From positions 22,486-86,485 of the IMG/VR virus record IMGVR_UViG_3300037761_000271: a stretch of DNA of 64,000 bases, one strand, 5' to 3'. Positions 32,132 through 63,479 of the stretch are shown here, piece after piece. The stretch's first letter is position 1; each line of letters starts with the position of its first letter. The position numbers and the translations under genes are program-made. The notes beneath the pieces were generated by a model, which saw nothing but the letters and a program-made list of their open reading frames with translations, did no database searches and was not told where the DNA came from. The DNA is from a virus. Taxonomy: Duplodnaviria; Caudoviricetes.

Positions 32132-32458
32132 ATGTTTCGGAGCGGGGAGGTCCGGCTCGTGGCAGCTCGAACAAGGCGGCTCCGTGCGGTAGGGCCAGGT
32201 GAGTCCGCGCAGGGAAGGAAGCCACCGCGTGTGACGGTAGCGGCCCAGAGCGGCAGCCACAGGGATCTGCTGGTCGCTCTGCGGTCCAGGATTGCCCAGG
32301 CAGTCGAGGACCCGAACACGCCACCCCGGGATCTGGCGTCACTGTCGCGGCGGCTGCTGGAGATCGCTAAGGAGATCGAGGCGATCGATGCCGACGACCA
32401 GGGGGACGAAGTTGGTGCGGCAGCCGCGACGCCGGACGAACCGTGGGCTGCTACCTGA
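32132..32458 (+). CDS. Terminase small subunit
   Basis: RDLLVALRSRIA..PPRDLASLSRRLLEIAKEIE; synteny. Confidence 0.75.
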   Translation: MFRSGEVRLVAARTRRLRAVGPGESAQGRKPPRVTVAAQSGSHRDLLVALRSRIAQAVEDPNTPPRDLASLSRRLLEIAKEIEAIDADDQGDEVGAAAATPDEPWAAT

Positions 32459-33902
32459 GGCCCGTCACCTGATCTTGCCGAAGGGGATCCGGTCGTCCGG
32501 GTTCCCTTCGGTGCGGGAGACGTGCCGACGTGTCGGTATCGAGTTCGACCGGTGGCAGCAGGATCTGAACAGGTGCCTGCTGGCCAAGGACGCGGCCGGG
32601 TTGTACGCGGCCGACACCGCGGTGCTGTCGATCGCGCGCCAGGTGGGTAAGACCTTCGACGTGGGTGCGGTGGCGTTCGCGTTGTGTATCGCCACGCCGG
32701 GTCTGACGGTGGTGTGGACGGCGCACCGGTTCAAGGTGTCGCGCGAGTCATTCAACGAGATGCGGGCATGGGCGAAACGGCGCCAGCTCGCCGCGCACAT
32801 CGACTACGACGAGATCACCACTGGGGCGGGGAACGAGCAGATCCCGTTCCGCAATGATGCCCGGATCGTGTTCGCGGCCCGGGAGCGTGGGGCGATCCGC
32901 GGGTTCACCAAGGTCGGGGTGCTGGTGCTGGACGAGGCGCAGATCCTGACCGAGGCGGCGCTGTCGGACCTGGTGCCGACGACCAACCAGGCGCCGAACC
33001 CGCTGGTGATCCTGATGGGCACACCGCCGAAGCCGACCGACCCGAGTGAGGTTTTTGTCCGGCTGCGGCAGGAGGCGCTGGACGGCGAGTCGGATGATGT
33101 GCTGTACGTCGAGCTGTCCGCCGACGCGAACGCCGACCCGAACGACCGTAGGCAGTGGCGCAAGGCGAACCTGTCGTACCCGGCCCGCACGTCGGAGCGG
33201 GCGATCCTGCGGCTGAAGAAGCTGCTGTCGGCCGAGGATTTCCTGCGGGAGGGGCTGGGGGTCTGGCCGGAGGGCGGCCTACCGAAGTGGCAGGTAATCA
33301 GCGAGGCGGCGTGGCTGGCCCGGCAGAAGACCACCCGCGCGCAGCTTCGGCTGGTCGACCCGGTGACGCTGGGGGTGGATGTCACCCCGGACCGGACCTG
33401 GTCGGCGGTCGCCGCCGCCGGTGACCGGGTCGGTGGCGGCCGGGCGGTGGAGGTCACCGCCGACCCGCAGGCGGCCGAGCTGCGGGACCGGGTGGACTAC
33501 CGGCCGGGCACCGGCTGGGTGATACCCCGGCTGAAGACGCTGGTGGAACGCAACCGGCCGTGTGTGATCGTGATATCGGACCGGGCGCTGTTCGAGGAGG
33601 CCGAGGCGGCTGGGCTGCCGGCCTACCGGGCCAGCACCGGCGACCTGGCGTCGGCGGCGGCGAAGCTGTACGACGGGATCGCCGGCACCACCCCGGACGT
33701 GTGGCACTCACCCGACCCGGACCTGGCCGATGCGGCGGCGGGGGCGACGAAGCGTCCGCTCGGCGATGGGTGGGCGTGGGACCGCCGCTCGGTCAGCGTC
33801 AACATCTGCACCCTGGTCGCCACCAGCCTGGCGTTGTGGGGGGCGGCAACACCTCGCATCCACGTTGCCCGGTTGACCCCGTTCGCCCTCGTCGGCAGCT
33901 AG
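32415..33902 (+). CDS. Terminase large subunit
   Basis: IARQVGKT Walker A, LVLDEAQ Walker B, MGTPP, LGVD nuclease motif. Confidence 0.93.
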   Translation: MRQPRRRTNRGLLPEARHLILPKGIRSSGFPSVRETCRRVGIEFDRWQQDLNRCLLAKDAAGLYAADTAVLSIARQVGKTFDVGAVAFALCIATPGLTVVWTAHRFKVSRESFNEMRAWAKRRQLAAHIDYDEITTGAGNEQIPFRNDARIVFAARERGAIRGFTKVGVLVLDEAQILTEAALSDLVPTTNQAPNPLVILMGTPPKPTDPSEVFVRLRQEALDGESDDVLYVELSADANADPNDRRQWRKANLSYPARTSERAILRLKKLLSAEDFLREGLGVWPEGGLPKWQVISEAAWLARQKTTRAQLRLVDPVTLGVDVTPDRTWSAVAAAGDRVGGGRAVEVTADPQAAELRDRVDYRPGTGWVIPRLKTLVERNRPCVIVISDRALFEEAEAAGLPAYRASTGDLASAAAKLYDGIAGTTPDVWHSPDPDLADAAAGATKRPLGDGWAWDRRSVSVNICTLVATSLALWGAATPRIHVARLTPFALVGS

Positions 33903-33905
33903 ATA

Positions 33906-34000
33906 CCCTCGCCTTGCCCCGCCTGGCCAAGCCAGGCCCGGCCTTGCCGCACCTAGCCATGCCCGGACTCGCCGTACCCAGCCGTGCCCCGCCAGGCCAC
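33906..34000 (-). ncRNA. NN-GGY pentamer array 3 (putative guide RNA)
   Basis: 18 consecutive 5-nt units at 33911-34000 (17 GGY, 1 GTC) plus a terminal GAGGG; starts right after the stop codon at 34002. Confidence 0.85.
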
Positions 34001-34001
34001 G

Positions 34002-34541
34002 CTAACTTTCTCCTCGCTCCAGCCGCTCCAGCCGAGCCTTGAGTTCCGCGATCTCCTCCTCGGACCGCTCGTGACGCTGGTCCATCGACGACAGGGACTC
34101 CTCCAGCCGTTTCTGTCGGATGTCCATCCGCCGGTTGAAGTCCATCTGTGCGGCGAATGCCCGCGCAACCAGCTCGAATGCCTGCCGGGTGTCCGGGTCC
34201 ATGCCCGAGAAGTCGACGTGGACCACCTTCGAATGACCGGAGCGTAGCGCCCGGTTCGACTTCCGCTGCTGCTGGCGGGCAAGCTGCATGTGCTCGGGTG
34301 GCCTCACCACCCGATAGCCCTGGTTGGGGACCGCCTCGACCGCCCGCTTGTCGATCAGCTCATGTTCGCGGGCGGCCCGCCGCATCGCCATCTGTAGCTG
34401 GTGCCGGTCCCGGACAGGATGCAGGCCGAGGGCGTCACCCATCTGCTGGTAGGTGAGGGTGTGGGCGGTCTCGGTGGCCCGGAGCAGGTCGTAGACGATC
34501 CGCCACCGGGGTTGCTCGCCGAGTGGCTGGAATGGTGCCAT
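34002..34541 (-). CDS. Accessory protein: winged-helix-like N-terminus, coiled-coil C-terminus
   Basis: TLTYQQMGDALGL..AMRRA..VPNQGYRV; TGATG-coupled to the RAMP gene. Confidence 0.75.
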   Translation of the reverse strand: MAPFQPLGEQPRWRIVYDLLRATETAHTLTYQQMGDALGLHPVRDRHQLQMAMRRAAREHELIDKRAVEAVPNQGYRVVRPPEHMQLARQQQRKSNRALRSGHSKVVHVDFSGMDPDTRQAFELVARAFAAQMDFNRRMDIRQKRLEESLSSMDQRHERSEEEIAELKARLERLERGES

Positions 34542-35113
34542 CACGCGGTCTCGACCTTGGCGATGAACCGGCCGTAACGGGGGCGCCAGTCGCCCAGCCC
34601 GATCAGTTGTCCGGCGGTTTCGGCGATCGCCTCGACCTCGGCCAGGTCGATGACGTTGGTATCGATGTAGCCGAGGGCATCGGTGCGCCACTCGCGGAAC
34701 ATGGGCCGGCAGCGCATGACCCGCTGCTGCCCGACCTTGGCGGACGCCAGCAGTCGGAAGTTCTCATCGGCCCACAGTCCGGCCGCGTCGCGTGGCCCGC
34801 GGTAGGCGAGCGGGTTCAGGTCGGACTTGATGAACACGCCTTCCTTGACCTTCGGCCCGCGCTTGGACTTCTTCGCCGCGTCGTAAAGGGCGCGCCAGAT
34901 GTTCTCACCGGGGATGAATGGGCCGATCTCCGAGTCGATGTAGAGCGACCCGGCGTGCTCCAGCCGGGCGATCTGTTCGTGGTCATCGTCGGTCTTGTTG
35001 CGCTTCCCGGTGATCCGCTTCATGGCCTTTGCGGCTGGGTCGAGCGGGTTGGACAGCCTGCCGCTGTGCATGAGCAGGCTGGTTGTGCCTTCGATGGTGA
35101 TGCGGAAGTCCAT
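34541..35113 (-). CDS. Stand-alone Cas7/RAMP-like RNA-binding protein (190 aa)
   Basis: ITIEGTTSLLMH first strand, PFIPGENIWRAL (cf. RAMP PYIPGSSLKGAL), C-terminal G-loop IGLGDWRPRYGRF; RBS GAGGAG. Confidence 0.8.
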   Translation of the reverse strand: MDFRITIEGTTSLLMHSGRLSNPLDPAAKAMKRITGKRNKTDDDHEQIARLEHAGSLYIDSEIGPFIPGENIWRALYDAAKKSKRGPKVKEGVFIKSDLNPLAYRGPRDAAGLWADENFRLLASAKVGQQRVMRCRPMFREWRTDALGYIDTNVIDLAEVEAIAETAGQLIGLGDWRPRYGRFIAKVETA

Positions 35114-35139: not shown

Positions 35140-35214
35140 TCCCTGCCGCGCCCAGCCGTGCCTCGCCGAGCCCAACCTAGCCAGGCCGCGCCGGGCCCGG
35201 CCCCGCCCCGCCTT
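35140..35214 (-). ncRNA. NN-GGY pentamer array 2 (putative guide RNA)
   Basis: 14 perfect NN-GGY units at 35145-35214 plus a terminal AGGGA. Confidence 0.87.
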
Positions 35215-35217
35215 GCG

Positions 35218-35259
35218 TGCGGTGGTCGGGAGTCGAACCCGACTGATGACCATCACCGC
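35218..35259 (-). ncRNA. tRNA-like minihelix between arrays 1 and 2
   Basis: GCGGTG/CACCGC stem plus GTCGGG-TTCGACT-CCCGAC T-arm, followed by a discriminator-like A. Confidence 0.75.
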
Positions 35260-35261
35260 GC

Positions 35262-35336
35262 CCCATGCCCCGCCTCGACAAGCCGTGCCAAACCAAGACT
35301 CGCCACGCCCAGCCTCGCCTGGCCAAGCCGTGCACC
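35262..35336 (-). ncRNA. NN-GGY pentamer array 1 (putative guide RNA)
   Basis: 13 units at 35267-35331 (11 GGY, 2 GTC) plus a terminal ATGGG. Confidence 0.85.
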
Positions 35337-35339
35337 CGC

Positions 35340-35380
35340 AATATACCACGCTTTACGGGATACATACCACGTCTATACCG
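35340..35380 (-). promoter_or_regulatory. Extended -10 promoter of the cassette with direct repeats
   Basis: TGgTATATT at 35348-35340, about 7 nt before array 1; ATACCACG at 35343 and 35364 (21 bp apart). Confidence 0.65.
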
Positions 35381-35398
35381 TGATAGAGGGGATGCTGT

Positions 35399-36787
35399 GT
35401 GAGCTGGTGGCGGAGGCTGCTGGGGCTCCAGCGGGCCACCAGCACCGAGTTGCAGAAACGGTCGGCCCTGTCCTGGCAGGATTATGTTGATCTTTTCAGT
35501 TTTGGTGGCTCCAGCTATCCGCTGCTGAACACCACCATGGCCTCGATGAACGAGGAGGCCATCGGGTCGACCCTGTCGCAGGTGGCCAAGTCCAACGGGC
35601 CGGTATTCGCGCTGCTGCTCGCCCGGCTACAGGTGTTCTCCCAGGCCCGGTTCCAGTGGACCCGCTTCGACCGGGGGGCGCCCGCCGACCTGTTCGGCAC
35701 GGACGAGCTGGCTGTGCTGGAGCGGCCGTGGCCGGGTGGAACCACCGCGGACCTGCTCGCCCGGATGGAGATCCAGGTCACCACTGCCGGGAACGCCTAT
35801 GTGCGCCGGGTCGGCCGGGGCGAGAAGTCCCGGCTGATCTGCCTGCGGCCGGAGTGGATGTACATCGTCCTCGGGTCGCAGACCGACGCCGACCACCCGG
35901 CCGAAGCCGCCGACGTGGAGCTGCTCGGCTACGTCTACAAGCCACCCAACGCGAAGATGGTCACGTTCCTGCCCGAGGAGATCGCTCACTACGCGCCGAT
36001 CCCGGACCCGGACGCCACCTACCTGGGCATGTCCTGGATCACCGCCGCCCTGCGGGACATCTCCGGCGACAACCTGATGACCGACCACAAGCGCGCCTTC
36101 CTCCGCAACGCGGCCACCCCCAACATGGTGATCAAGTTCGACCCCAGCATCACGCTTGCGGCGGTCAAGGAGTTCAAAGAGGTCTTCGAGGCCGAGCACC
36201 AGGGCGCGCTGAACGCATACAAGACGGTGTACCTGGGCGGCGGCGCCGACGCGACCGTGGTCGGCAAAGACTTCCAGCAGTTGGAGTTCGCGGTCACCCA
36301 GGGCAAGGCCGAGTCGCGGCTGGCATCCTGCGCCGGGGTCCCCCCGTCCTGGGTCGGATTCTCCGAAGGGCTCCAGGGTTCGTCGCTCAACGCGGGCAAC
36401 TTCACCGCCGCCAGGCGCCGCTTCGGCGACGGAACCATGCAGCACATGTGGATGAACGTCGCCGCCAGCCTGGAGATCCTGGTCCGCCGACCCAGCGTCG
36501 GCGTGTACCTGTGGTTCGCCACGAAGGGCATCCCGTTCCTGCACATGGACGCGAAGGACGCGGCCGAGGTGCAGGCCACCGAGGCGCAGACCATCACCGC
36601 GCTGGTGCGGGACGGGTTCACCGCCCAGTCGGCGATCCTCGCGGTCCAGAACCACGACTGGTCCCGCCTGGTGCACACCGGGAGGGTTTCTGTCCAGCTC
36701 CAGACCCCCGGTGAGGCGGACGCGGCGCAGGTCAACGGCAACGGCGCCCGGCGCGGAGAGCTGATCGTCGGTGCCCTGCGGCCATGA
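35399..36787 (+). CDS. Portal protein (HK97-like)
   Basis: GNAYVRR, LRPEW, FLRNAATP, VPPSWVG; position after terL. Confidence 0.92.
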   Translation: MSWWRRLLGLQRATSTELQKRSALSWQDYVDLFSFGGSSYPLLNTTMASMNEEAIGSTLSQVAKSNGPVFALLLARLQVFSQARFQWTRFDRGAPADLFGTDELAVLERPWPGGTTADLLARMEIQVTTAGNAYVRRVGRGEKSRLICLRPEWMYIVLGSQTDADHPAEAADVELLGYVYKPPNAKMVTFLPEEIAHYAPIPDPDATYLGMSWITAALRDISGDNLMTDHKRAFLRNAATPNMVIKFDPSITLAAVKEFKEVFEAEHQGALNAYKTVYLGGGADATVVGKDFQQLEFAVTQGKAESRLASCAGVPPSWVGFSEGLQGSSLNAGNFTAARRRFGDGTMQHMWMNVAASLEILVRRPSVGVYLWFATKGIPFLHMDAKDAAEVQATEAQTITALVRDGFTAQSAILAVQNHDWSRLVHTGRVSVQLQTPGEADAAQVNGNGARRGELIVGALRP

Positions 36788-55809: not shown

Positions 55810-56499
55810 GTGCCGCTGTCAGTCCCCGACCAGTTCCCCTTCGAGGCGCCGGGCGACCAGCCGCTGCATTCGCTGACTGGTGGGTCGTCCGGCACTGAGC
55901 CGATCCTGGCCGAGGTGCTACAGACCAAGTGGTCGGCGCTGCAAACCACCATCGGCGACCTGGCCGACCGGCTGACCGTGGTGGAGGCGGCATCGGCCGC
56001 GTCCCGGTGGCGGCACATCACCACCGGCAGCCAGACCGGCGGCGCGTCCACCCCGGCGCTGGCGGTCCCGGCCGGGTTCCTGATGCTGCGGCTGTCCGCG
56101 TGGGGGGACATGGCCGACAACCAGGACTTGTTGCTGCGGGTCAACGAGGACTCCGGCAGCAACCACATCTGGGGGCTGAACATCTGGGGGGCCGGGACAG
56201 CTGGTGCCACTACAGATTTTACTCACAGCGGTGGCGGCACCAGCGCGTGGAGGATCGGACGTTGGGCGACAACCGAGTCCAACAACAGTCTGGTCAACAT
56301 CTTCCCCGGTGACGGTGGCCAGAACCCATCCTATCTGTCCTACTCGCACCGGGACTCCACCACCGACACTTCCCATGGCATCCAGCTCGGCAGGGGTAAG
56401 TACCTTGGTGATGTGGTGATATCCAGCCTGAGGATCCTCGCCAATGGCACGACGTTCCAGGATGTCCGCTGGGTTCTTGAAGGGTATCTGTCTGCATAA
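55810..56499 (+). CDS. Tail fibre/minor tail protein
   Basis: Coiled coil then beta-rich domain; RBS GAGGAGG. Confidence 0.6.
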   Translation: MPLSVPDQFPFEAPGDQPLHSLTGGSSGTEPILAEVLQTKWSALQTTIGDLADRLTVVEAASAASRWRHITTGSQTGGASTPALAVPAGFLMLRLSAWGDMADNQDLLLRVNEDSGSNHIWGLNIWGAGTAGATTDFTHSGGGTSAWRIGRWATTESNNSLVNIFPGDGGQNPSYLSYSHRDSTTDTSHGIQLGRGKYLGDVVISSLRILANGTTFQDVRWVLEGYLSA

Positions 56500-56516
56500 T
56501 AGGAGAAAGGGCGAAT

Positions 56517-56843
56517 ATGACCAACCTCATGATTATCCCTGTGCGCAAGTTCATCCAGTACGATGGAACTAACGGAGATGTAATCTTCCAGCTCTTCCAG
56601 GACTCGACCATCCAAAATCCGTCACTGGATCTTGATGATGGGAACACGCTTACGATCGGCTGGGGGTCGACCGACCCAGAGGAGCGTGAAGGCACTACAC
56701 TCCAGAACGGACAATGGATGCAGTATAGCCATAATGAGAACGGACTGCCGCACGTTGGCGCAGCCGCAGTAACCGATCCATTGTTGCAGCCAATCAACTT
56801 TGGGATTGTCATTCGTTCGTCTGGCGTAATCGTCGAACACTGA
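56517..56843 (+). CDS. Hypothetical low-GC tail-region protein
   Basis: RBS AGGAG; visibly AT-richer. Confidence 0.6.
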   Translation: MTNLMIIPVRKFIQYDGTNGDVIFQLFQDSTIQNPSLDLDDGNTLTIGWGSTDPEEREGTTLQNGQWMQYSHNENGLPHVGAAAVTDPLLQPINFGIVIRSSGVIVEH

Positions 56844-59236
56844 TGGCGGCTGTCTGGATGACCGTCGGGAACACTGGTCCGGCCGGGGCAACGTTCGCAT
56901 GCAAGGTGGACGGCGGCGGCCCGGTGCGGGTAGCGGTGGCCGACAACGCCGACATGGCCGGGCCGGTGTTCACCGGCTCGCAGGCGGTCGACGCTCAGGG
57001 CGTCGCGAAGGTATCGATCGCCGGCCTTGCCCCAGGCACCCCGTGGTTCTGGCGGGTCGAGGACAACGGCACCATCGACACGGCCGAGACCGGCCGGTTC
57101 CGAACGCTACCAACAGCTGGGTTACCGGCCAGCTTCACCATTGCGGCCTACGGTGATGCGGGCCTGTCCCCGGTCACCCCCGGCAGCGGCACCAGCTTGG
57201 GCGACAACCTGGTGTCAGACCATGTCGCGTTTGACACCATCCGGCAGGCCGCGCTCGCCGGCGGCTGGCCGCTGGCGGTGAACCTGGGCGACTGGGGATA
57301 CCCCGACTGGGGTGTGACTCTCACCGATACGCTGGCGAACCGGCGCACATTCTGGGATGACAACCTGCTACAGCCCAGGCAGGCGGCGCTGCTGCGGGAC
57401 GTGTCCGGTGTCCTCCTGTGGGATGATCATGACTTTGCCGCGAACAACAGCGACGGAACGTACGCCAACAAGGCCAACGGGCTGACCGTGTACGGGGAGC
57501 GGATGCCCCACCATCCGCTGGCCGGCACCGACGGCATCAACCAGGCGGCACAGATCGGCCGGGGGCTGCTGATCGGCGCCGACGTGCGGTACAACCGCAG
57601 CCCCAACAGCGACCCGGACACCGCGTCGAAGACGATGCTGGGCGCGACCCAGAAGGCGTGGATGGAAGGGCTGCTGACAGCAGCGTCCTCCACGGGGGTC
57701 CGGTACGTGATCTGGCTGATGCCTCAGCAGTGGCTGGGCACCGCCACCGACTCCTGGGCCAGCTTCACCACCGAGCAGGCCGAGCTGGTGCAACTGTTCG
57801 GCGACCACGGGTTCGCCGGGCGGGTGTGGCTGCTGTCCGCCGACTACCACGGTGTGGCACTCGACGACGGCACCAACTCGGCCGGCGGCTTCCCGGTGCT
57901 GCAATGCGCGGCGATCGACGCCACGCCGGGGTTGGGTGGCGGCGGTAGCTACTCCCACGGCAGCTTCGATGGCCGCGACCAGTACGGCACTCTGACGGTG
58001 ACCGACCTAGGGAGCAGCGTCAGCGTGCGGCTGACCGGCTGGCGCGGCACCACTGAGCTGGTCAGCCACCAGTCCGGTTTCGTCCTGTCCACCACGGTCG
58101 CGGTCGCCTCCGGAGCGCTGCGCCGCACCCTGGCCGGCTCCCACCGGCCGCTGCTGGAGGCCCGGGTAGTCACCGGCCATCCCACCGGGGATGACCCGGA
58201 CGGGGAGGAGATCCCCATCCGGGGTGGGGACGTGGTCTACGACGGCACCGCCGAGGTCCGCGCCACCCTCCGCCTGGACACGCTGGGGATCTCGGATGCC
58301 ACCGGGCGAAGCACGTACCCCCGGTTCGCCACCGATCTGCTGTCGCCGGTCCGCGGCGCCGAGATCTTCATCCGCTACGGGCTGGACCTGGGCGGTGCCG
58401 GTGTCCTGTGGACCCCGCTGGGCTACTACCGGATCGAGGACGACGACCAGGGTGAGGCCCCGTACGGCGGGATCGCCCTGGCCGGCAAGGACCGGATGGC
58501 TGCGCTGATCGAAGGCAACCTGCTGTCCCGGCGGCTGTACCCGGCCAGCCGCGCGGTCGGCACCATCGTCGAGGACCTGGTCACCGACATCTACCCCGAT
58601 GCGGTGATCGTGTGGGACGACAGCTCGGACCTGAACCCGCTGGGCCGGGTGCTGGTGGTGGAGGAGTCCCGGTACGAGGCGCTGCGGGATATCGCGGTCA
58701 GCACCGGGAAGCTGATGTACTGGGACGACACCGGGGTGCTGAGGTTCGAGACCCCCCCGGATGAGGACAGCCCGGTGTGGGAGGTCCGCTCCGGCCGGGA
58801 TGGGGTGCTGGTCTCCGCCGCCCGTCGGGTCAGCCGGCAGGATGTGGTCAACGGGTGGGTGGTGGTCGGGCAGGCCGCCGACGATCTGTCCCGGGTCCGC
58901 TCGGTGGCGATCGACAGCAACCCGCAGTCGCCTACCTACTTCTTCGGCGACTTCGGGCAGGTGGTGCGCCGCCACGAGTCGCCGCTGATCTTCAACCAGC
59001 CGCAGGCCGACACCGCCGCGATCGCCCTGCTGCGCCGCAGCCTCGGCGCCCCCCATGAGGTGGAGTTCAGCGCGATCACCAACCCCACGTTGCGGCCGTG
59101 GCAGCCTACCCGCGCCACCTACCGGGATGGCAACCGGGACGTGGTGGTGATGCAGCGGGTCCGTGTGCCGCTGGCCCGTCAGACCATGACCGGCGCCGGG
59201 CGCACCAGGATCCTGGCCGCGATAGGGAGCGTGTGA
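56843..59236 (+). CDS. PhoD-like metallophosphoesterase fused to a tail hub (DUF5047-like) domain
   Basis: GRFRTLP, NLGDWGY, WDDHD, DVRYNRS, MLGATQKAW; C-terminal tail domain. Confidence 0.82.
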   Translation: MAAVWMTVGNTGPAGATFACKVDGGGPVRVAVADNADMAGPVFTGSQAVDAQGVAKVSIAGLAPGTPWFWRVEDNGTIDTAETGRFRTLPTAGLPASFTIAAYGDAGLSPVTPGSGTSLGDNLVSDHVAFDTIRQAALAGGWPLAVNLGDWGYPDWGVTLTDTLANRRTFWDDNLLQPRQAALLRDVSGVLLWDDHDFAANNSDGTYANKANGLTVYGERMPHHPLAGTDGINQAAQIGRGLLIGADVRYNRSPNSDPDTASKTMLGATQKAWMEGLLTAASSTGVRYVIWLMPQQWLGTATDSWASFTTEQAELVQLFGDHGFAGRVWLLSADYHGVALDDGTNSAGGFPVLQCAAIDATPGLGGGGSYSHGSFDGRDQYGTLTVTDLGSSVSVRLTGWRGTTELVSHQSGFVLSTTVAVASGALRRTLAGSHRPLLEARVVTGHPTGDDPDGEEIPIRGGDVVYDGTAEVRATLRLDTLGISDATGRSTYPRFATDLLSPVRGAEIFIRYGLDLGGAGVLWTPLGYYRIEDDDQGEAPYGGIALAGKDRMAALIEGNLLSRRLYPASRAVGTIVEDLVTDIYPDAVIVWDDSSDLNPLGRVLVVEESRYEALRDIAVSTGKLMYWDDTGVLRFETPPDEDSPVWEVRSGRDGVLVSAARRVSRQDVVNGWVVVGQAADDLSRVRSVAIDSNPQSPTYFFGDFGQVVRRHESPLIFNQPQADTAAIALLRRSLGAPHEVEFSAITNPTLRPWQPTRATYRDGNRDVVVMQRVRVPLARQTMTGAGRTRILAAIGSV

Positions 59237-60048
59237 TGACCACCGAACGGCTGGCCCGGGACCTGGCCAGGAAGGTGGCTGCCGCGCCCCAGCCTGTCAC
59301 CGGGTTGGGGCTGCACATGGCCACCCTGCTCACCTGGGACCCGTCCACACTGACCGGCAGCGTCGACCTGGACGGGGACGTGCTGCCGGACCTGCCGGTC
59401 GAGTCGGCGATCGACGCGTTCAGCTGGACGCCGGGTGATACGGTGCTGGTCCACTCCTGGCACCCACCCGACGGTCACCGCCGCCGCGGGTTCGGCTCGT
59501 ACTGGATCCGCAGCCGGGTGTTCCGGCCAGGCGCGGCTAATGCGGCCAAGGTGTTGCAGGCGCTTCAGAACAGCTTCGCCAAGCAGATCGCCGCGGAGAT
59601 CGCCGCCGAGAACATCTTCAGCGCGACCGCTCTTGGCACCGAAACTCGCGCTGACACCGCCGGGTTTGGCACGCTGTCCGGCGGGCCGACATTGACGGTT
59701 TCCGTTGGTAGCACGGGCAAGGTTATTGTACATTTATCGACCTCGATAATCGGTACCGAGGCCGCTGCGGAACCTGGTATCGCCAGAGCCGGTGGTCGGA
59801 TGTCGGTATCGTTGTCCGGGGCCAACACCGCAGCCGGGTCCAGCGATAGGTCGACGGCGATCCTGGGGCAGTTCGCCAGCGCCCCGGGCACTACGGATGT
59901 GATCGAGGTTGGTGGCCGGTTTGGAACGACGTTCGCTCTTGACGGGCTCAATCCCGGAGACACGGTGTTCACCGCTCAGTATGCCCGGCTATTCCCCGGC
60001 ACCACGTGCGACTTCACGGACCGGACGATCGTGGTGCAACGAGCTTGA
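59236..60048 (+). CDS. Minor tail protein
   Basis: Coupled ORF, beta-rich C-terminus. Confidence 0.65.
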   Translation: MTTERLARDLARKVAAAPQPVTGLGLHMATLLTWDPSTLTGSVDLDGDVLPDLPVESAIDAFSWTPGDTVLVHSWHPPDGHRRRGFGSYWIRSRVFRPGAANAAKVLQALQNSFAKQIAAEIAAENIFSATALGTETRADTAGFGTLSGGPTLTVSVGSTGKVIVHLSTSIIGTEAAAEPGIARAGGRMSVSLSGANTAAGSSDRSTAILGQFASAPGTTDVIEVGGRFGTTFALDGLNPGDTVFTAQYARLFPGTTCDFTDRTIVVQRA

Positions 60049-60318
60049 TCGATGGCGGCGTGCTGGGATCAGGTACGGGGTCAGCACAAAACCGGCAGCG
60101 GCCAGGACCGCCGCGCAACCTGCCGGTAGGGTGTCTTCGCTCAGCGCCAGCCCGATCGGCGGAAGCAATGTCGGTAGTGCAGCTACTAATGCTGCCGCTA
60201 CCGCCAGTATCGTGAGTACCGCAATGGTGACCAGCCGAGTGATCGTGTCGTCTTTCATCGGATTGGTGACGGGTCGCATTCGGGCCACGGTGACCGGGGC
60301 TGCGGTAGCGTGCTTCAC
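59989..60318 (-). CDS. Antisense small membrane protein (moron)
   Basis: Two TM segments; upstream CATAAT, 5' hairpin GGCCCCGG..CCGGGGCC (60343-60378), RBS AGGAGG. Confidence 0.6.
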   Translation of the reverse strand: MKHATAAPVTVARMRPVTNPMKDDTITRLVTIAVLTILAVAAALVAALPTLLPPIGLALSEDTLPAGCAAVLAAAGFVLTPYLIPARRHRSSSLHHDRPVREVARGAGE

Positions 60319-60479
60319 AGGGTCCCTCCTATCAGGGATCTAGGCCCCGGTGCTGGCGCTAGCACGCCGCCCGGGGCCGTCTTACACCTATTATGGGTTA
60401 TGTGGGTGACCTGGTCATAGTCAGTGTCGGATGCCCGACCCAGAGTCTGCCCGAACGGCTGACGCTCAGGGGGTGAACG

Positions 60480-61382
60480 ATGCCGACGTACGCCGAGTTG
60501 CAGACCGAGACGTGGTGGGGGCGGGAGATCACCCCCGACCCGCTGCGGGCGCTCGGTGAGCGGCTGTGTCGCGCCTACGGGCGGCCGCTGGCCGCCGCTG
60601 GCACCAAGGGCGACAACCTCCACCTCTCCGGCGCCCACCGCTCCCAGGAGTGGATCCTCAACAGCCGGTACGCCACCAGCCGCAGCTACACCGTCCAGCC
60701 CGGGCTGACCGCGGCCCAGTTGCGGTGCATCTGTGGCCTGGACTTTAACCCGGGCAGCACCGCGCGGATGATCGAGGTGTGCTCCCGGTTGGACCGGGCG
60801 GTCCGCGCCGGCACCCTGGAGGTTGTGCGGGAGTGGTACGGCAACCTCGACGGCGACACGAGGGTGGACGGCTACAACAACATCCTCAACCGGGCGGCCA
60901 CCAGCGACGCCAGCCACCTTTGGCATCTCCATGCCACGCTGGACCGGCGGCAGGTGGCCGACGCCGGGGCGATGCGCCTGGTCGGGGATGTGCTGCTAGG
61001 GCAGACGACAGGAGGGGACATGCTCCCAGAGTTGGGCGACCAGGGGCCGACGGTCGAATACTGGCAGCGGATGCTGCGGATCGCCGGCTACGACCCGGGG
61101 GCCGCCGACGGGGTGTACGGCCCGGCCACCAAGGCGGCCGCCGACAAGTTCCGCGCCGACCACGAGCTCGGCGGGTCCAACTCCATCACCGCCTGGATGG
61201 CGGTGGCCATCCAGGGCGAGGTGTTCGCCGGCAAGGCCGGCCCACCGGGGCCACCCGGACCGGCGGGCGCCGACGGGAAGCCGGGCGCCAAGGGCGACCG
61301 GGGCGAACCCGGCCCGGCCGGACCGGCGGGACCCACCCCCACCGAGGTCACGTTCGCCGGCATCGTCACCAAGACGTCATGA
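60480..61382 (+). CDS. Endolysin (Zn-peptidase-like domain, PG-binding domain, collagen-like tail)
   Basis: GAHRS..GLD..HLWHLH; LGDQGPTV..WQRML..ADGVYGPAT. Confidence 0.8.
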   Translation: MPTYAELQTETWWGREITPDPLRALGERLCRAYGRPLAAAGTKGDNLHLSGAHRSQEWILNSRYATSRSYTVQPGLTAAQLRCICGLDFNPGSTARMIEVCSRLDRAVRAGTLEVVREWYGNLDGDTRVDGYNNILNRAATSDASHLWHLHATLDRRQVADAGAMRLVGDVLLGQTTGGDMLPELGDQGPTVEYWQRMLRIAGYDPGAADGVYGPATKAAADKFRADHELGGSNSITAWMAVAIQGEVFAGKAGPPGPPGPAGADGKPGAKGDRGEPGPAGPAGPTPTEVTFAGIVTKTS

Positions 61383-61403
61383 CCCGGAGAGAGTAGACGC
61401 GAT

Positions 61404-61667
61404 GTGGTTGAGACCGTGGTCGGTCTGGGCGGCGCCGGCGGCCTCCTCGCCGCATTCGGCTACCTCCTCATGGCCAACCGTGGGGATCGGCGCGACTACC
61501 GGCAGGCGGTCGACCAGGAGGAGGCGCGGGCGGAGCGGGCCGAGCAGCGGGTCAGGGACATCAGGGCCAAGCTGGAGGAGCAGCGCACCGCCCGGTACGC
61601 GTGCGAGGAGGCCGCGGCCGGGCTCCGGGCGGAGCTGGCGGCGCTGCGGCGGGACGGTGGCCGGTGA
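61404..61667 (+). CDS. Membrane/coiled-coil lysis-cassette protein
   Basis: N-terminal TM segment plus coiled coil. Confidence 0.65.
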
Positions 61668-62239
61668 GCGCTGAGACACGCCAGCTGGCCCGGGTGAGCG
61701 CCCAGCGGCGGCGCCGGACGGTGGCCTCGGTGGTGGTTGCGGTCGCCGCGTTCGCCGCGCTCGGGTTCTCCGGGTGGCAGTTCGCCGGCCGGGTCAACGA
61801 GCAGGAGCAGCGGGCGGCCGAGGCGCGGGCCGCGGTGGAGCAGCTGTGCACCCAGGTGGAGCAGCTCGGCCGGCGGTGTGTCGTGGACCCGGAGGAGCTG
61901 CGGGGCGAGCCGGGAGCGCCGGGGCTGCCCGGACCGCCGGGGCCGCCGGGGCCTGCCGGTCCGGCGGGTGAGCCCGGCCCGTCCGGGCGCACGGGCCCGG
62001 ACGGTTTGCAGGGGCCGGGCGGGGATCCGGGGGCGGCAGGCCCGGCCGGTGAGATCGGCGAGCCGGGGCTGCCGGGTCCACCGGGTGAGCCGGGGCCGGC
62101 GGGTCCGCAGGGTGAGCCGCCGCTGTCGTGGACGTTCACCATCCAGCGCGGCGGCCAGCTAACCACCCACCGGTGTGTTCGGGACGAGCCATTTGACCCG
62201 GGGGCGCCGAGGTACGAGTGCCAGCCGGTAGAAGAATAG
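61664..62239 (+). CDS. Membrane-anchored collagen-like protein
   Basis: TM segment plus G-x-y repeats. Confidence 0.8.
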
Positions 62240-62243
62240 TGCT

Positions 62244-62762
62244 GTGCAGACCAAACTGAGCCGCAACCGGCAGACCGAGTACGAGATCGCGCGGACTGCA
62301 TGCGACCAGCTCAGCAGTAGTGTCACCATCGCTGGCGACTGCTGGGAGTGGCGGGGCGTACGCACCAATAGGCAGTACGGCCAGGTGTGGGTAGATGGCC
62401 AGTACTGGAGTGTCCATCGCCTAGCGTGGATACTCTTTCATGATCAGGCGATCCCAGATCAGCTCTATATCTGCCACCGGTGCGACAACCCCCCCTGCTG
62501 CAACCCAAGGCACCTGTTCGCCGGAACCCCTGCTGACAACCAGAGAGACCGCGCCAGCAAAGGCAGGGTGACCAATCAGTACACCGGCGTGACGCACTGC
62601 CAGCGGGGGCACCCGTTCGACGCGGCCAACACGTACATGCCTCCGCGCGGTGGACGGGTGTGCCGGAGATGCGTGCAGGCGAGCAGGGACCGGTACATCG
62701 CACGCCAGGCAGTCGTGACGGCCGCCGGCAAGGTGCGGCTGAGCGAGAGGACTAGGGCATGA
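62244..62762 (+). CDS. Free-standing HNH endonuclease
   Basis: [30 protein letters not shown]; THCQRGH..CRRC. Confidence 0.92.
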
Positions 62763-62935
62763 GACGGATACGCAAGCTGGTCGCGGCGATCCTGGGCGGG
62801 CTCACCGCCACCGCGGTGGTTGCGGTTGCACGGATGGCCGGGGTGGAGCTGGCGCCGGAGGTGGCCGGGCTGATCGTGCTGGTAGCGGCATCACTGTCGA
62901 CCTACCTGGCGCCGGCCAACGAGGCGCCGACGTGA
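62759..62935 (+). CDS. Holin
   Basis: 58 aa with two TM segments, [17 protein letters not shown] (below the ORF track cutoff). Confidence 0.7.
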
Positions 62936-63198
62936 CTGACCCGGGCTGGTTGACCTGGTTCTGGCTAGCGTGGCTGACCGTGCTCACCGGCGGGTTCGTC
63001 TTCGCCCAGACGGTCGCACTGGTGGACCCCGGCCGGGGTGGCACGCTGAGCGAGTGGACCAGACGGCAGCTCGGGGTGAACCCACCGCGGCCACGGCGGC
63101 GGTGGGCGGTGGCCACGTTCACCACCGTGCTGGTGGTGCTCACGGTGTGGCTGGTGCCTCACATGACCTACTGGCCGTGGCGCTGGTACTGGGAATGA
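62932..63198 (+). CDS. Small Trp-rich membrane protein
   Basis: Two TM segments, GGTLSEW. Confidence 0.65.
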   Translation: MTDPGWLTWFWLAWLTVLTGGFVFAQTVALVDPGRGGTLSEWTRRQLGVNPPRPRRRWAVATFTTVLVVLTVWLVPHMTYWPWRWYWE

Positions 63199-63263
63199 CC
63201 TAGCCGGGCGGCTCCCAGCGTCGGCCGCGCGCGAGATAATAGACCTGAACAGAGGAGAGCATT

Positions 63264-63479
63264 ATGCGTAAGCTGCTCATCATCGTGGCGCTGGTCGCCG
63301 CCGGCGTCGGCGCCGCGGCCAGCCCGGCCCACGCCGACCCGATCACCTGCCCACCCGGCCAGGAGGCCGCAGTCAACCCGTCCGACGGCGGATGGATGTG
63401 CGTCAACAAGGCCGGCAACGGCAACAACAGTGAGGACCCGCGCCCGCCGAACGCCGACAAGGGCGACTTCCGCCCCTGA
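63264..63479 (+). CDS. Small secreted protein
   Basis: Signal peptide ending ASPA-HA; two Cys; own RBS GAGGAG. Confidence 0.75.
   Translation: MRKLLIIVALVAAGVGAAASPAHADPITCPPGQEAAVNPSDGGWMCVNKAGNGNNSEDPRPPNADKGDFRP

What the first reader, a model, noticed from the sequence alone, without database searches (positions are those of the whole stretch)
35262..35509. Array 1 dinucleotides match the adjacent portal gene when every third base is skipped
Array 1 NN series (minus strand): AC TT CA GA TG GT GA TT TT AC TT GA GG. First two bases of portal codons 25-37 (35471-35509, SWQDYVDLFSFGG): TC TG CA GA TA GT GA CT TT AG TT GG GG. This gives 20/26 identities, 7 exact dinucleotides and no double mismatch. 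A rough binomial estimate (p=0.25) is about 4e-8 per register, or about 0.005 across both strands of the window, and the hit lies about 140 bp from the array. Read as codons, the guide spells T-F/L-Q/H-D/E-W/C-V-D/E-F/L-F/L-T-F/L-D/E-G, i.e. a portal homologue. Inference: it targets the portal gene of a related competitor phage while the own allele has diverged. Alternatively, partial (G-T wobble) self-binding tunes late gene expression.
Basis: partly seen in the sequence, partly recalled or inferred. Interest (0 to 1): 0.92.

Follow-up and report, generated by a model that had tools for sequence, protein, structure and literature searches.

The report
VIPR guide aimed at rival portal genes
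The five-base repeat next to this phage's portal gene is a guide RNA of the recently described CRISPR-like VIPR system; read by the published "skip every third base" rule it spells the start of the portal gene as related rival phages carry it, while the phage's own copy is locally altered and recoded, so it is a new example of a known inter-phage weapon with an interesting built-in immunity.

Summary
Observation confirmed: the array-1 dinucleotides match own portal codons 25-37 at 20/26. This is the best hit on both strands of the 86.5-kb record (0 of 3000 shuffled guides reach 20).

The system is known. The 190-aa protein matches the solved SUSP1 Vipr protein (E 1e-30). The arrays are GGY/NN vrRNAs, and skipping one base per unit is the published VIPR rule (bioRxiv 10.64898/2026.04.26.720920).

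- Related portals match better than the own gene. With the full 14-unit guide the own gene scores 20/28 (71%). The nearest relatives, which lack the cassette at this position, score 23/28 (82%), and two more distant portals score 24/28 (86%).
- The published natural-target threshold is 80% or more.
- No perfect target was found.

The own allele is exceptional at the site.
- It has 13 differences in 39 nt against the closest relative, versus 3% further on.
- The divergent tract ends at the last guide unit.
- 8 of 9 codons end in T, in a gene with 4% T-ending codons. No cassette-free homologue shows this.

I found the same layout in Mycobacterium phage LittleE against its sisters Squint and Courthouse. 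Other reports of this scan describe it on other DNA.

Verdict: a new member of a known kind. Two points are unpublished in the papers I searched: the linkage of the guide to an immune allele, and the recoded skip bases.

The parts
35265..35334 (-). Repeat tract of vrRNA1 (array 1): 14 YNNGG units. The NN guide is AC TT CA GA TG GT GA TT TT AC TT GA GG AT.
   Evidence: Read directly and found by the array caller. It fits the published vrRNA definition of 9-16 YNNGG repeats.
35218..35259 (-). Structured 3' tail of vrRNA1: a tRNA-like minihelix with an acceptor-like stem and a T-arm (GTCGGG TTCGACT CCCGAC).
   Evidence: Sequence and fold. The same element lies next to arrays in Gordonia phage MakoManhole and M. 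abscessus prophiBWHA-1. ARAGORN calls no tRNA.
35340..35348 (-). Extended -10-like box (TGGTATATT) just upstream of array 1; probable vrRNA1 promoter.
   Evidence: Read from the sequence. The consensus scan found no full -35/-10 promoter, so this is inference.
35471..35511 (+). Near-cognate site for vrRNA1 in the phage's own portal gene (codons 25-38). NN falls on codon positions 1-2 and the skip base on the wobble. Score 20/26, or 20/28 with 14 units.
35480..35506 (+). Patch of T-ending codons (8 of 9) under guide units 4-12. Local GC is 44% against 70% for the window.
   Evidence: T-ending codons are 4.3% in the portal overall. A/T-ending codons are 8/14 at this site here, 0-2/14 in 13 cassette-free homologues and 4/14 in one further, more AT3-rich homologue (L037).
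35399..35512 (+). Divergent 5' tract of the portal gene relative to the closest relative L005: 11 differences per 40 nt, then almost none. It ends at the last guide unit.
35399..36787 (+). Portal gene (HK97-type).
   Evidence: PF04860 E 5e-31; phrog_12.
34541..35113 (-). vipr gene (190 aa RAMP-like protein, P0001).
   Evidence: Matches PDB 36pp_D 'SUSP1 Vipr protein', E 9.8e-31 over the full length. phrog_4652. Homologues occur in Felixounavirus, Pseudomonas and actinobacterial phages.
34002..34541 (-). vap-like accessory gene (179 aa), coupled to vipr by TGATG.
   Evidence: Sequence. Homologues sit directly after the Vipr homologue in four actinophages; one is annotated as a DNA binding protein.
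35143..35212 (-). Array 2 (14 GGYNN units) between the tail and the vipr ribosome binding site. No target found.
33909..33998 (-). Array 3 (18 units) after the vap stop codon, abutting the terL stop codon. No target found.
32292..33902 (+). Large terminase gene. Its last ~80 nt are also more diverged from L005 than the rest (13 differences in 80 nt).
   Evidence: phrog_9.

Best explanation
Array 1 plus its tRNA-like tail is a VIPR guide RNA (vrRNA1). It belongs to a roughly 1.5-kb antisense cassette (vrRNAs, vipr, vap) inserted between the terminase and portal genes of an actinobacterial phage. Its nearest cellular kin are Micromonospora prophages.

By the published mechanism, Vipr protomers coat the repeat tract, hide each GGY and present the NN pairs. 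These pair with the template strand of a portal gene at codon positions 1-2 and skip the wobble base. The resulting R-loop filament blocks late transcription.

The guide spells the conserved N-terminal portal motif x-F-Q-D-W-V-D-L-F-T-F-D-G as rival relatives carry it. The carrier's own portal has a locally replaced and recoded version (S-W-Q-D-Y-V-D-L-F-S-F-G-G-S) that falls below the match level used to call natural targets.

Guide and resistant allele lie 137 bp apart, so they are inherited together.

Shown by computation: the identity of the system, the match, better matches in cassette-free relatives, and the local divergence of the own allele.

Inferred: expression of vrRNA1, silencing of rival portals, and immunity of the own allele.
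For: - System identity: P0001 matches the solved SUSP1 Vipr protein. The locus has GGY/NN arrays of 14, 14 and 18 units and a coupled vap-like gene.
- Published rule: NN read with a one-base skip, skip mostly at the wobble, either DNA strand, natural targets called at 80% NN match or more, and no self hit at 80% or more.
- Here, only skip 1 gives an outlier: 20 against 16 and 16.
- Match at the homologous site of portal homologues, with 14 units: own 20/28; L005, L006 and L014 23/28; L037, L038 and L039 24/28; L011 and L013 22/28; Micromonospora prophages 18-21/28.
- Null: 2000 shuffles on the 342-kb pool reach at most 23, once. Of 30 guides from 12 VIPR loci, only this one is a clear outlier. 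None of 401 genomes around Micromonospora has a site at 23/26 or better.
- L005 is 96-97% identical in both flanks but has 96 bp where the cassette sits.
- Own allele against L005: 13 differences in the 39-nt site and 19 in the 72 nt before it, against 41 in the next 1278 nt. The tract ends at guide unit 14.
- None of the 120 best portal homologues carries the own WQDYVDLF motif; 29 carry the guide-encoded QDWVD.
- Replicate: the LittleE guide G5 matches the tape-measure gene of cassette-free sisters Squint and Courthouse 16/16 over 8 units, about 350 bp from the insertion point. LittleE's own allele scores 14/16 and is locally recoded.
Against: - No perfect or near-perfect (above 86%) natural target was found in IMG/VR, GTDB genomes or JGI metagenomes.
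- The own allele differs from the nearest rival at only 6 NN positions. There the guide sides with the rival 4 times, with the own allele once and with neither once (one-sided p about 0.19).
- The mismatch tolerance of any Vipr is not given in the texts I read, so 82-86% against 71% may not separate silencing from immunity.
- Many family members score as low as the own allele.
- The divergent tract could simply be a recombination joint left by the insertion.
- The related contigs are short, so rivals may carry VIPR elsewhere in their genomes.
- Nothing is known about expression.
Confidence: 0.75

Rival explanations
1. Self-regulation. vrRNA1 binds the phage's own portal site despite the mismatches and tunes or times late-gene expression, for example by keeping the late operon shut in the lysogen. 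The AT-rich wobble bases ease DNA opening and make up for the mismatches.
For: - The best hit in the whole record is the phage's own gene, 137 bp away.
- Two of the six mismatches would be G-U pairs (read).
- The site is the only strongly AT-enriched patch inside the portal gene.
- A T excess on the guide-identical strand could also be a mutational footprint of a persistent R-loop.
Against: - A dedicated self-regulator would be expected to match perfectly. Here the match is 71-77%, below the 80% used for natural targets, and the published surveys found no self hit at 80% or more.
- Cassette-free relatives match better than the own gene.
- With the 14th unit, the tail-proximal end, from which unwinding is reported to proceed, carries a double mismatch on the own allele.
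- Close relatives manage without the cassette.
Confidence: 0.12
2. Relic or generalist guide with no present effect. The guide once matched an ancestral portal allele, or drifts around the family consensus. Today it silences nothing, and the divergent portal 5' end is only the scar of the recombination that brought the cassette in.
For: - No target above 86% was found in any collection.
- Arrays 2 and 3 have no detectable target either.
- Both flanks of the cassette show raised divergence, as at any mosaic joint.
Against: - The GGY scaffold of array 1 is intact: 11 of 14 units are GGY and the rest differ by one base.
- The divergent tract ends within 3 nt of the last guide unit, and its synonymous recoding is concentrated under the guide rather than spread over the tract.
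- The same arrangement recurs in LittleE with a perfect 8-unit match to living sister phages.
Confidence: 0.1
3. Chance resemblance between a T-rich dinucleotide series and a T-rich stretch of the portal gene.
For: - With 14 units the own-gene score alone has p about 0.009.
- Very large databases do yield unrelated 21-22/26 hits, such as the EDCVEFFTFEG protein family.
Against: - Order-preserving controls fail.
- GC-rich homologous sites in relatives score higher than the T-rich own site, so composition is not the cause.
- The hit is in frame, with the skip at the wobble, as the published rule predicts.
- 401 related genomes hold no site at 23/26 or better.
Confidence: 0.03

Closest known systems
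Type II VIPR systems of Escherichia phage SUSP1 and a Pseudomonas fulva prophage (bioRxiv 10.64898/2026.04.26.720920, 10.64898/2026.04.26.720927, 10.64898/2026.10.15.759431)
   Same: - Vipr homologue (E 1e-30 to the solved SUSP1 protein).
- Two-gene vipr-vap operon flanked by vrRNAs made of GGY/NN units.
- Repeat tract followed by a structured tail.
- Target read with a one-base skip aligned to the codon wobble.
- Target is an essential gene of a competing mobile element.
- No self match at 80% or more.
   Different: - The host is a high-GC actinobacterial phage.
- The tail is a tRNA-like minihelix rather than the SUSP1 pseudoknot.
- The vap protein shows no detectable similarity to enterobacterial phage proteins.
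- The target is the homologue of the carrier's own neighbouring gene, in near-identical cassette-free relatives, rather than a satellite or a lysogeny regulator.
- The carrier's own copy is recoded at skip positions. The published papers do not describe this.
Freestanding homing endonucleases of T-even phages and their marker exclusion (e.g. SegG, MobE; from my own knowledge, not tested here)
   Same: - A small selfish cassette sits between conserved genes.
- It recognises a site in a neighbouring conserved gene of relatives that lack the cassette.
- The carrier's own site is protected by nearby polymorphisms.
- A tract of diverged flank travels with the cassette.
   Different: - No nuclease domain was found in vipr or vap.
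- Recognition is by RNA guide, not by protein.
- The published type II effect is transcriptional silencing, not cleavage.
- Gene conversion has not been shown.
Class 1 CRISPR surveillance complexes (Cas7 filaments on crRNA) and phage-borne CRISPR used against rival elements (e.g. ICP1 against PLE; own knowledge)
   Same: A RAMP filament lies on a guide RNA, bases are flipped out periodically, an R-loop forms on DNA, and a phage uses it against a competitor.
   Different: - The code is gapped 2-of-3 rather than 5-of-6.
- There is no spacer acquisition machinery, no PAM (as published for VIPR) and no Cas3-type nuclease here.
- Self/non-self is set by the sequence of the target allele itself.

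Membership tests
VIPR system (type II-like) | Vipr protein: a minimal RAMP homologous to characterised Vipr proteins | tested here: met
   P0001 matches PDB 36pp_D 'SUSP1 Vipr protein' at E 9.8e-31, residues 4-187 of 190. It is 34% identical to Felixounavirus proteins and 41-43% to Pseudomonas phage proteins.
VIPR system (type II-like) | vrRNA: 9-16 (up to about 30) tandem YNNGG units with conserved GGY and variable NN, flanking the vipr gene | tested here: met
   Arrays of 14, 14 and 18 units lie on the vipr strand. The NN differ completely among 11 related loci while GGY is kept.
VIPR system (type II-like) | Repeat tract followed by a conserved structured 3' tail | tested here: inconclusive
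   Array 1 is followed by a tRNA-like minihelix that is conserved in MakoManhole, prophiBWHA-1 and LittleE. It is not the SUSP1-type pseudoknot. Arrays 2 and 3 have no such tail. The RNA ends are unknown.
VIPR system (type II-like) | Adjacent vap accessory gene with a predicted DNA-binding role | tested here: inconclusive
   A coupled 179-aa gene follows vipr. Its homologues always follow the Vipr homologue in actinophages, and one is annotated as a DNA binding protein. It has no Pfam domain and no informative PDB match.
VIPR system (type II-like) | Target recognition by the 1-nt skip rule, with the skip base mostly at the codon wobble | tested here: met
   Only skip 1 gives an outlier: 20 against 16 and 16. 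The site is in frame, with the skip at the wobble. Homologues reach 24/28. This is computational only.
VIPR system (type II-like) | Natural targets at 80% NN match or more in other elements, and no self hit at 80% or more | tested here: met
   Rival portals score 82-86% (88% with 13 units). The best hit on the own record is 71-77%.
VIPR system (type II-like) | vrRNA expressed and bound by Vipr; target transcription silenced | not testable with these tools
   This needs sRNA-seq, pull-down and reporter assays.
Homing endonuclease cassette (considered only as a working analogy) | Site-specific DNA endonuclease encoded in the cassette | tested here: not met
   No nuclease domain was found in vipr or vap by Pfam or PHROGs. 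The cassette is therefore not filed under this family.
TRAP-like protein-binding repeat RNA (my first idea: triplets bound, NN as mere spacers) | NN carry no information | tested here: not met
   The order of the NN series specifies a portal motif far beyond shuffled controls.

The most novel reading that the evidence does not exclude
VIPR cassettes may behave as selfish poison-and-antidote (homing-like) units. The guide is aimed at the cassette-free allele of the gene next to its own insertion site, and the cassette travels with a short resistant flank.

On top of this, the 'skipped' base may not be neutral. In both cases examined here (this phage and LittleE) the carrier's own site has been recoded at skip positions, with 12 T and 0 A on the guide-identical strand among 22 skip positions, against 1 T in the rival alleles.

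That would mean one of two things:
- The skip base, or local duplex stability, contributes to self/non-self discrimination.
- Persistent self R-loops leave a strand-specific mutational footprint.

Neither point is in the three VIPR preprints I read.
Probability: 0.3. Interest if true: 0.8.

Novelty: new member of a known kind. Interest (0 to 1): 0.5.

Why it matters
The find extends VIPR, so far characterised in E. coli and Pseudomonas phages, to high-GC actinobacterial phages. It gives a concrete natural guide-target pair in which the target is the rival's version of an essential structural gene.

The carrier's own copy shows how a phage avoids silencing itself: a short replaced tract with a few changed read positions and heavy synonymous recoding. 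If the recoding matters, the published statement that the skipped base is not read needs qualifying. That bears on how specific reprogrammed VIPR tools can be.

The close linkage of guide and immune allele also suggests how such cassettes spread and persist. The LittleE/Squint/Courthouse case offers cultured, non-pathogenic laboratory phages of M. smegmatis in which to test all this.

Tried and rejected
1. My first idea was a TRAP-like ring protein binding GGC triplets, with NN as spacers. I dropped it after the shuffle tests and the Vipr PDB match.
2. Rfam and tRNA scans of the region gave only a weak DicF-like hairpin (E 0.12) and no tRNA.
3. Searches for a perfect target:
   - Full 26-base pattern in IMG/VR: 0 hits.
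   - 21-base subset in GTDB genomes and JGI metagenomes: 0 hits. In IMG/VR it gave only L005-type and L011-type portals.
   - Pattern with unit 8 freed, in IMG/VR: 0 hits.
   - Units 4-13 exact in metagenomes: 8 hits, all in an unrelated conserved protein (GCWKEDCVEFFTFEGQI) of about 57% GC organisms. I judge these chance hits multiplied by family redundancy.
   - 401 genomes around Micromonospora at up to 3 mismatches: 0 hits.
4. A protein search limited to the N-terminal region returned only the query.
5. The own recoded patch was searched as exact DNA in IMG/VR: 0 hits, so no donor was identified.
6. Arrays 2 and 3, and 27 guides from 11 related loci, gave no clear outlier match in the 340-kb pool.
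7. A scan of the record for other runs of T at every third base was badly designed (threshold too low, out-of-frame noise) and taught nothing. Its only use was to show that 40-nt GC dips below 45% are rare.
8. The vap protein against the PDB gave only coiled-coil/TPR-like low-complexity hits.
9. A relatives search on the window's own genome is impossible because it is a virus record.
Full report
**What is there**

On the minus strand, the stretch 35334-35265 is a run of 14 five-base units of the form Y-NN-GG. The variable pairs read AC TT CA GA TG GT GA TT TT AC TT GA GG AT.

The run is followed by a 42-nt tRNA-like minihelix (35259-35218) and a second run of 14 units (35212-35143). Next come a ribosome binding site and a 190-aa gene (35113-34541), a translationally coupled 179-aa gene (34541-34002), and a third run of 18 units that abuts the stop codon of the large terminase gene.

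The whole antisense cassette of about 1.5 kb lies between the terminase gene (32292-33902) and the portal gene (35399-36787). The portal gene is followed by a protease-capsid fusion gene.

**Checking the observation**

The first 13 NN pairs, laid on the + strand at 35471 with one base skipped after each pair, give 20 of 26 identities.

- It is the highest score on both strands of the window (next 17 and 16) and of the whole 86,485-bp virus record to which the window belongs.
- None of 4500 shuffles of the order of the pairs, and 1 of 1500 single-base shuffles, reach 20.
- Skipping 0 or 2 bases gives only 16.
- The site is in frame with the portal, so the skipped base is the wobble.

One reservation applies. 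The repeat has a 14th good unit (C-AT-GG). With it the own score stays 20, now of 28, and 26 of 3000 shuffles do as well. On the own gene alone the evidence would be moderate.

**What it is**

My first idea was a protein-binding repeat RNA with NN as spacers.

The 190-aa protein matches the solved 'SUSP1 Vipr protein' (PDB 36pp) at E 9.8e-31 over its full length. It has homologues in Felixounavirus, Pseudomonas and actinobacterial phages.

The preprint that defines VIPR (10.64898/2026.04.26.720920) describes:
- a two-gene vipr-vap operon flanked by vrRNAs of 9-16 YNNGG repeats followed by a structured tail;
- recognition of double-stranded DNA in which only the NN pair, one target base is skipped per unit, and the skip mostly falls on the codon wobble;
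- natural targets called at 80% NN match or more;
- no self hit at that level;
- targets in competing phages and satellites.

The structural preprint (10.64898/2026.04.26.720927) shows one Vipr protomer per unit. The skip base is flipped into a pocket, and unwinding advances toward the 5' end of the guide.

The cassette here is a new, actinobacterial member of that family, with a tRNA-like tail in place of the SUSP1 pseudoknot.

**Testing the interpretation**

IMG/VR holds six related portals. Further ones came from a pattern search, from GTDB genomes (Micromonospora prophages) and from the large protein collection.

Scores at the homologous site with the 14-unit guide:

| Allele | Relation to own portal | Score |
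|---|---|---|
| Own | - | 20/28 (71%) |
| L005, L006, L014 | 96% (L005) and 92% (L006) identical portal proteins; L014 not measured | 23/28 (82%) |
| L011, L013 | - | 22/28 |
| L037/L038, L039 | 62% and 71% identical | 24/28 (86%; 23/26 = 88% with 13 units) |
| Micromonospora prophages | - | 18-21/28 |

- On the pooled 342 kb, 2000 shuffled guides reach at most 23, once.
- Of 30 guides from 12 VIPR loci, this is the only clear outlier.
- None of 401 genomes around Micromonospora holds a site at 23/26 or better.
- The GC-rich rival sites score higher than the T-rich own site, so base composition does not explain the match.
- The guide-encoded core QDWVD occurs in 29 of the 120 best portal homologues. 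The own WQDYVDLF occurs in none.
- No perfect target turned up anywhere. Hits to an unrelated protein family in metagenomes show what chance gives in very large collections.

**The own allele**

L005 is 96-97% identical to the window on both sides but has 96 bp where the cassette sits. L006 and L007 likewise have short spacers. The cassette is therefore an insertion.

Related cassettes (Vipr 61-92% identical) sit in unrelated neighbourhoods with quite different NN, so the unit is mobile.

Against L005, the portal gene has 19 differences in codons 1-24 and 13 in the 39-nt site, then 41 in the remaining 1278 nt. Per 40 nt the counts run 11, 11, 11, 0, 0, 1. The last difference of the divergent tract falls in guide unit 14. 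The last 80 nt of the terminase gene are also more diverged.

Inside the site, 8 of 9 codons end in T, in a gene where 4.3% do. A/T-ending codons number 8/14 at the site here. They number 0-2/14 in thirteen cassette-free homologues and 4/14 in one more AT3-rich homologue.

The positions actually read differ from L005 at only six bases. There the guide sides with the rival four times, with the own allele once and with neither once. Taken alone, that is weak (p about 0.19).

So the own allele is clearly special at the guide footprint. Whether the three net changes at read positions, the recoded skip bases, or both give immunity is open.

**A replicate**

I looked for the same layout in cultured phages. 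In Mycobacterium phage LittleE the vipr-vap cassette with five arrays is inserted between the tape-measure gene and the next tail gene. Its sisters Squint and Courthouse have 82 bp there and gave no Vipr hit.

LittleE's last guide matches the tape-measure gene of both sisters 16/16 over its first eight units. The match lies about 350 bp from the insertion point, with the skip on the wobble of the opposite-strand gene. LittleE's own copy scores 14/16 and has 9 differences in 30 nt locally. Five of its eight skip bases are changed, four of them C to T on the guide-identical strand.

Other reports of this scan describe the same arrangement on other DNA. I did not test those. The three VIPR preprints do not mention homing, recoding or neighbouring targets.

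**Mechanism and odds**

Most likely (0.75): vrRNA1 with Vipr silences the portal, and with it the late operon, of close relatives that enter the same cell. The own allele escapes, and guide and resistant allele are co-inherited.

Shown: system identity, code, better rival match, local divergence, and a replicate.

Inferred: expression, silencing, immunity.

Rivals:
- self-regulation by partial pairing (0.12);
- a relic guide beside a plain recombination scar (0.10);
- chance (0.03).

The most novel reading not excluded is a poison-and-antidote unit in which skip bases also count, or record R-loop damage. Across the two cases the own sites hold 12 T and 0 A at 22 skip positions on the guide-identical strand, against 1 T in the rivals. 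Forced C-to-T choices in two-fold codons and codon bias explain part of this.

**Verdict**

The thing is a new member of a published family rather than a new kind of system. Interest is moderate, and would rise if the recoding proves functional.

Noticed in passing
L001 1650-1693, 2985-3028, 3103-3146; L004 2366-2408; L003 3700-3735 and 3840-3880; window 35218-35259: The tRNA-like minihelix (acceptor-like stem plus a GGTTCGA-type T-arm) recurs next to VIPR arrays in Gordonia phage MakoManhole, M. abscessus prophiBWHA-1 and Mycobacterium phage LittleE. It seems to be the standard tail or separator of vrRNAs in actinophages.
   Followed up: partly
L040 7105-7494 (LittleE gp35): The annotated 'hypothetical protein' gp35 of LittleE coincides with two GGY/NN arrays (L003 2166-2360). 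It is probably a miscalled ORF lying over vrRNA genes.
   Followed up: no
window 35343-35380: ATACCACG occurs twice, 21 bp apart, with a related ATACCGTG. These lie between the vrRNA1 promoter-like box and the portal start and look like operator boxes in the divergent control region.
   Followed up: no
window 35467-35490 and 35494-35537: A short hairpin (CCTG...CAGG) followed by the T-rich patch scores as a weak terminator-like site on the portal strand (0.6 such sites expected by chance). Directly after the site, a GGTGG/CCACC hairpin gives a weak DicF-like Rfam hit (E 0.12). Either could be another reason for the odd codons.
   Followed up: no
window 33825-33902: The last 80 nt of the terminase gene carry 13 differences from L005, against about 1 per 40 nt further upstream. 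This is a second diverged flank on the other side of the cassette. Array 3 abuts it but does not match it or its L005 version.
   Followed up: partly
L002 2400-2500 (Gordonia phage Trine): Trine's Vipr homologue has no array upstream. Instead there is a perfect palindrome (TGTTGACGTATAACGTCAACA). Its arrays lie inside the annotated gene 40 region (L002 3134-3302).
   Followed up: no
L018-L025 (JGI metagenome contigs): A conserved motif GCWKEDCVEFFTFEGQI of an unrelated cellular protein matches guide units 4-13 exactly. It is a reminder that gapped 20-base patterns find chance hits in terabase collections.
   Followed up: partly
window 56400-63300: Several 40-nt GC dips below 45% cluster here in an otherwise 70% GC record. 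This may be a foreign or non-phage segment.
   Followed up: no
L026 and L005: A phage with a 92%-identical Vipr (L026) and the cassette-free phage with the guide-matching portal (L005) come from the same metagenome (IMG 3300037499). VIPR carriers and target-type phages therefore share a habitat.
   Followed up: no
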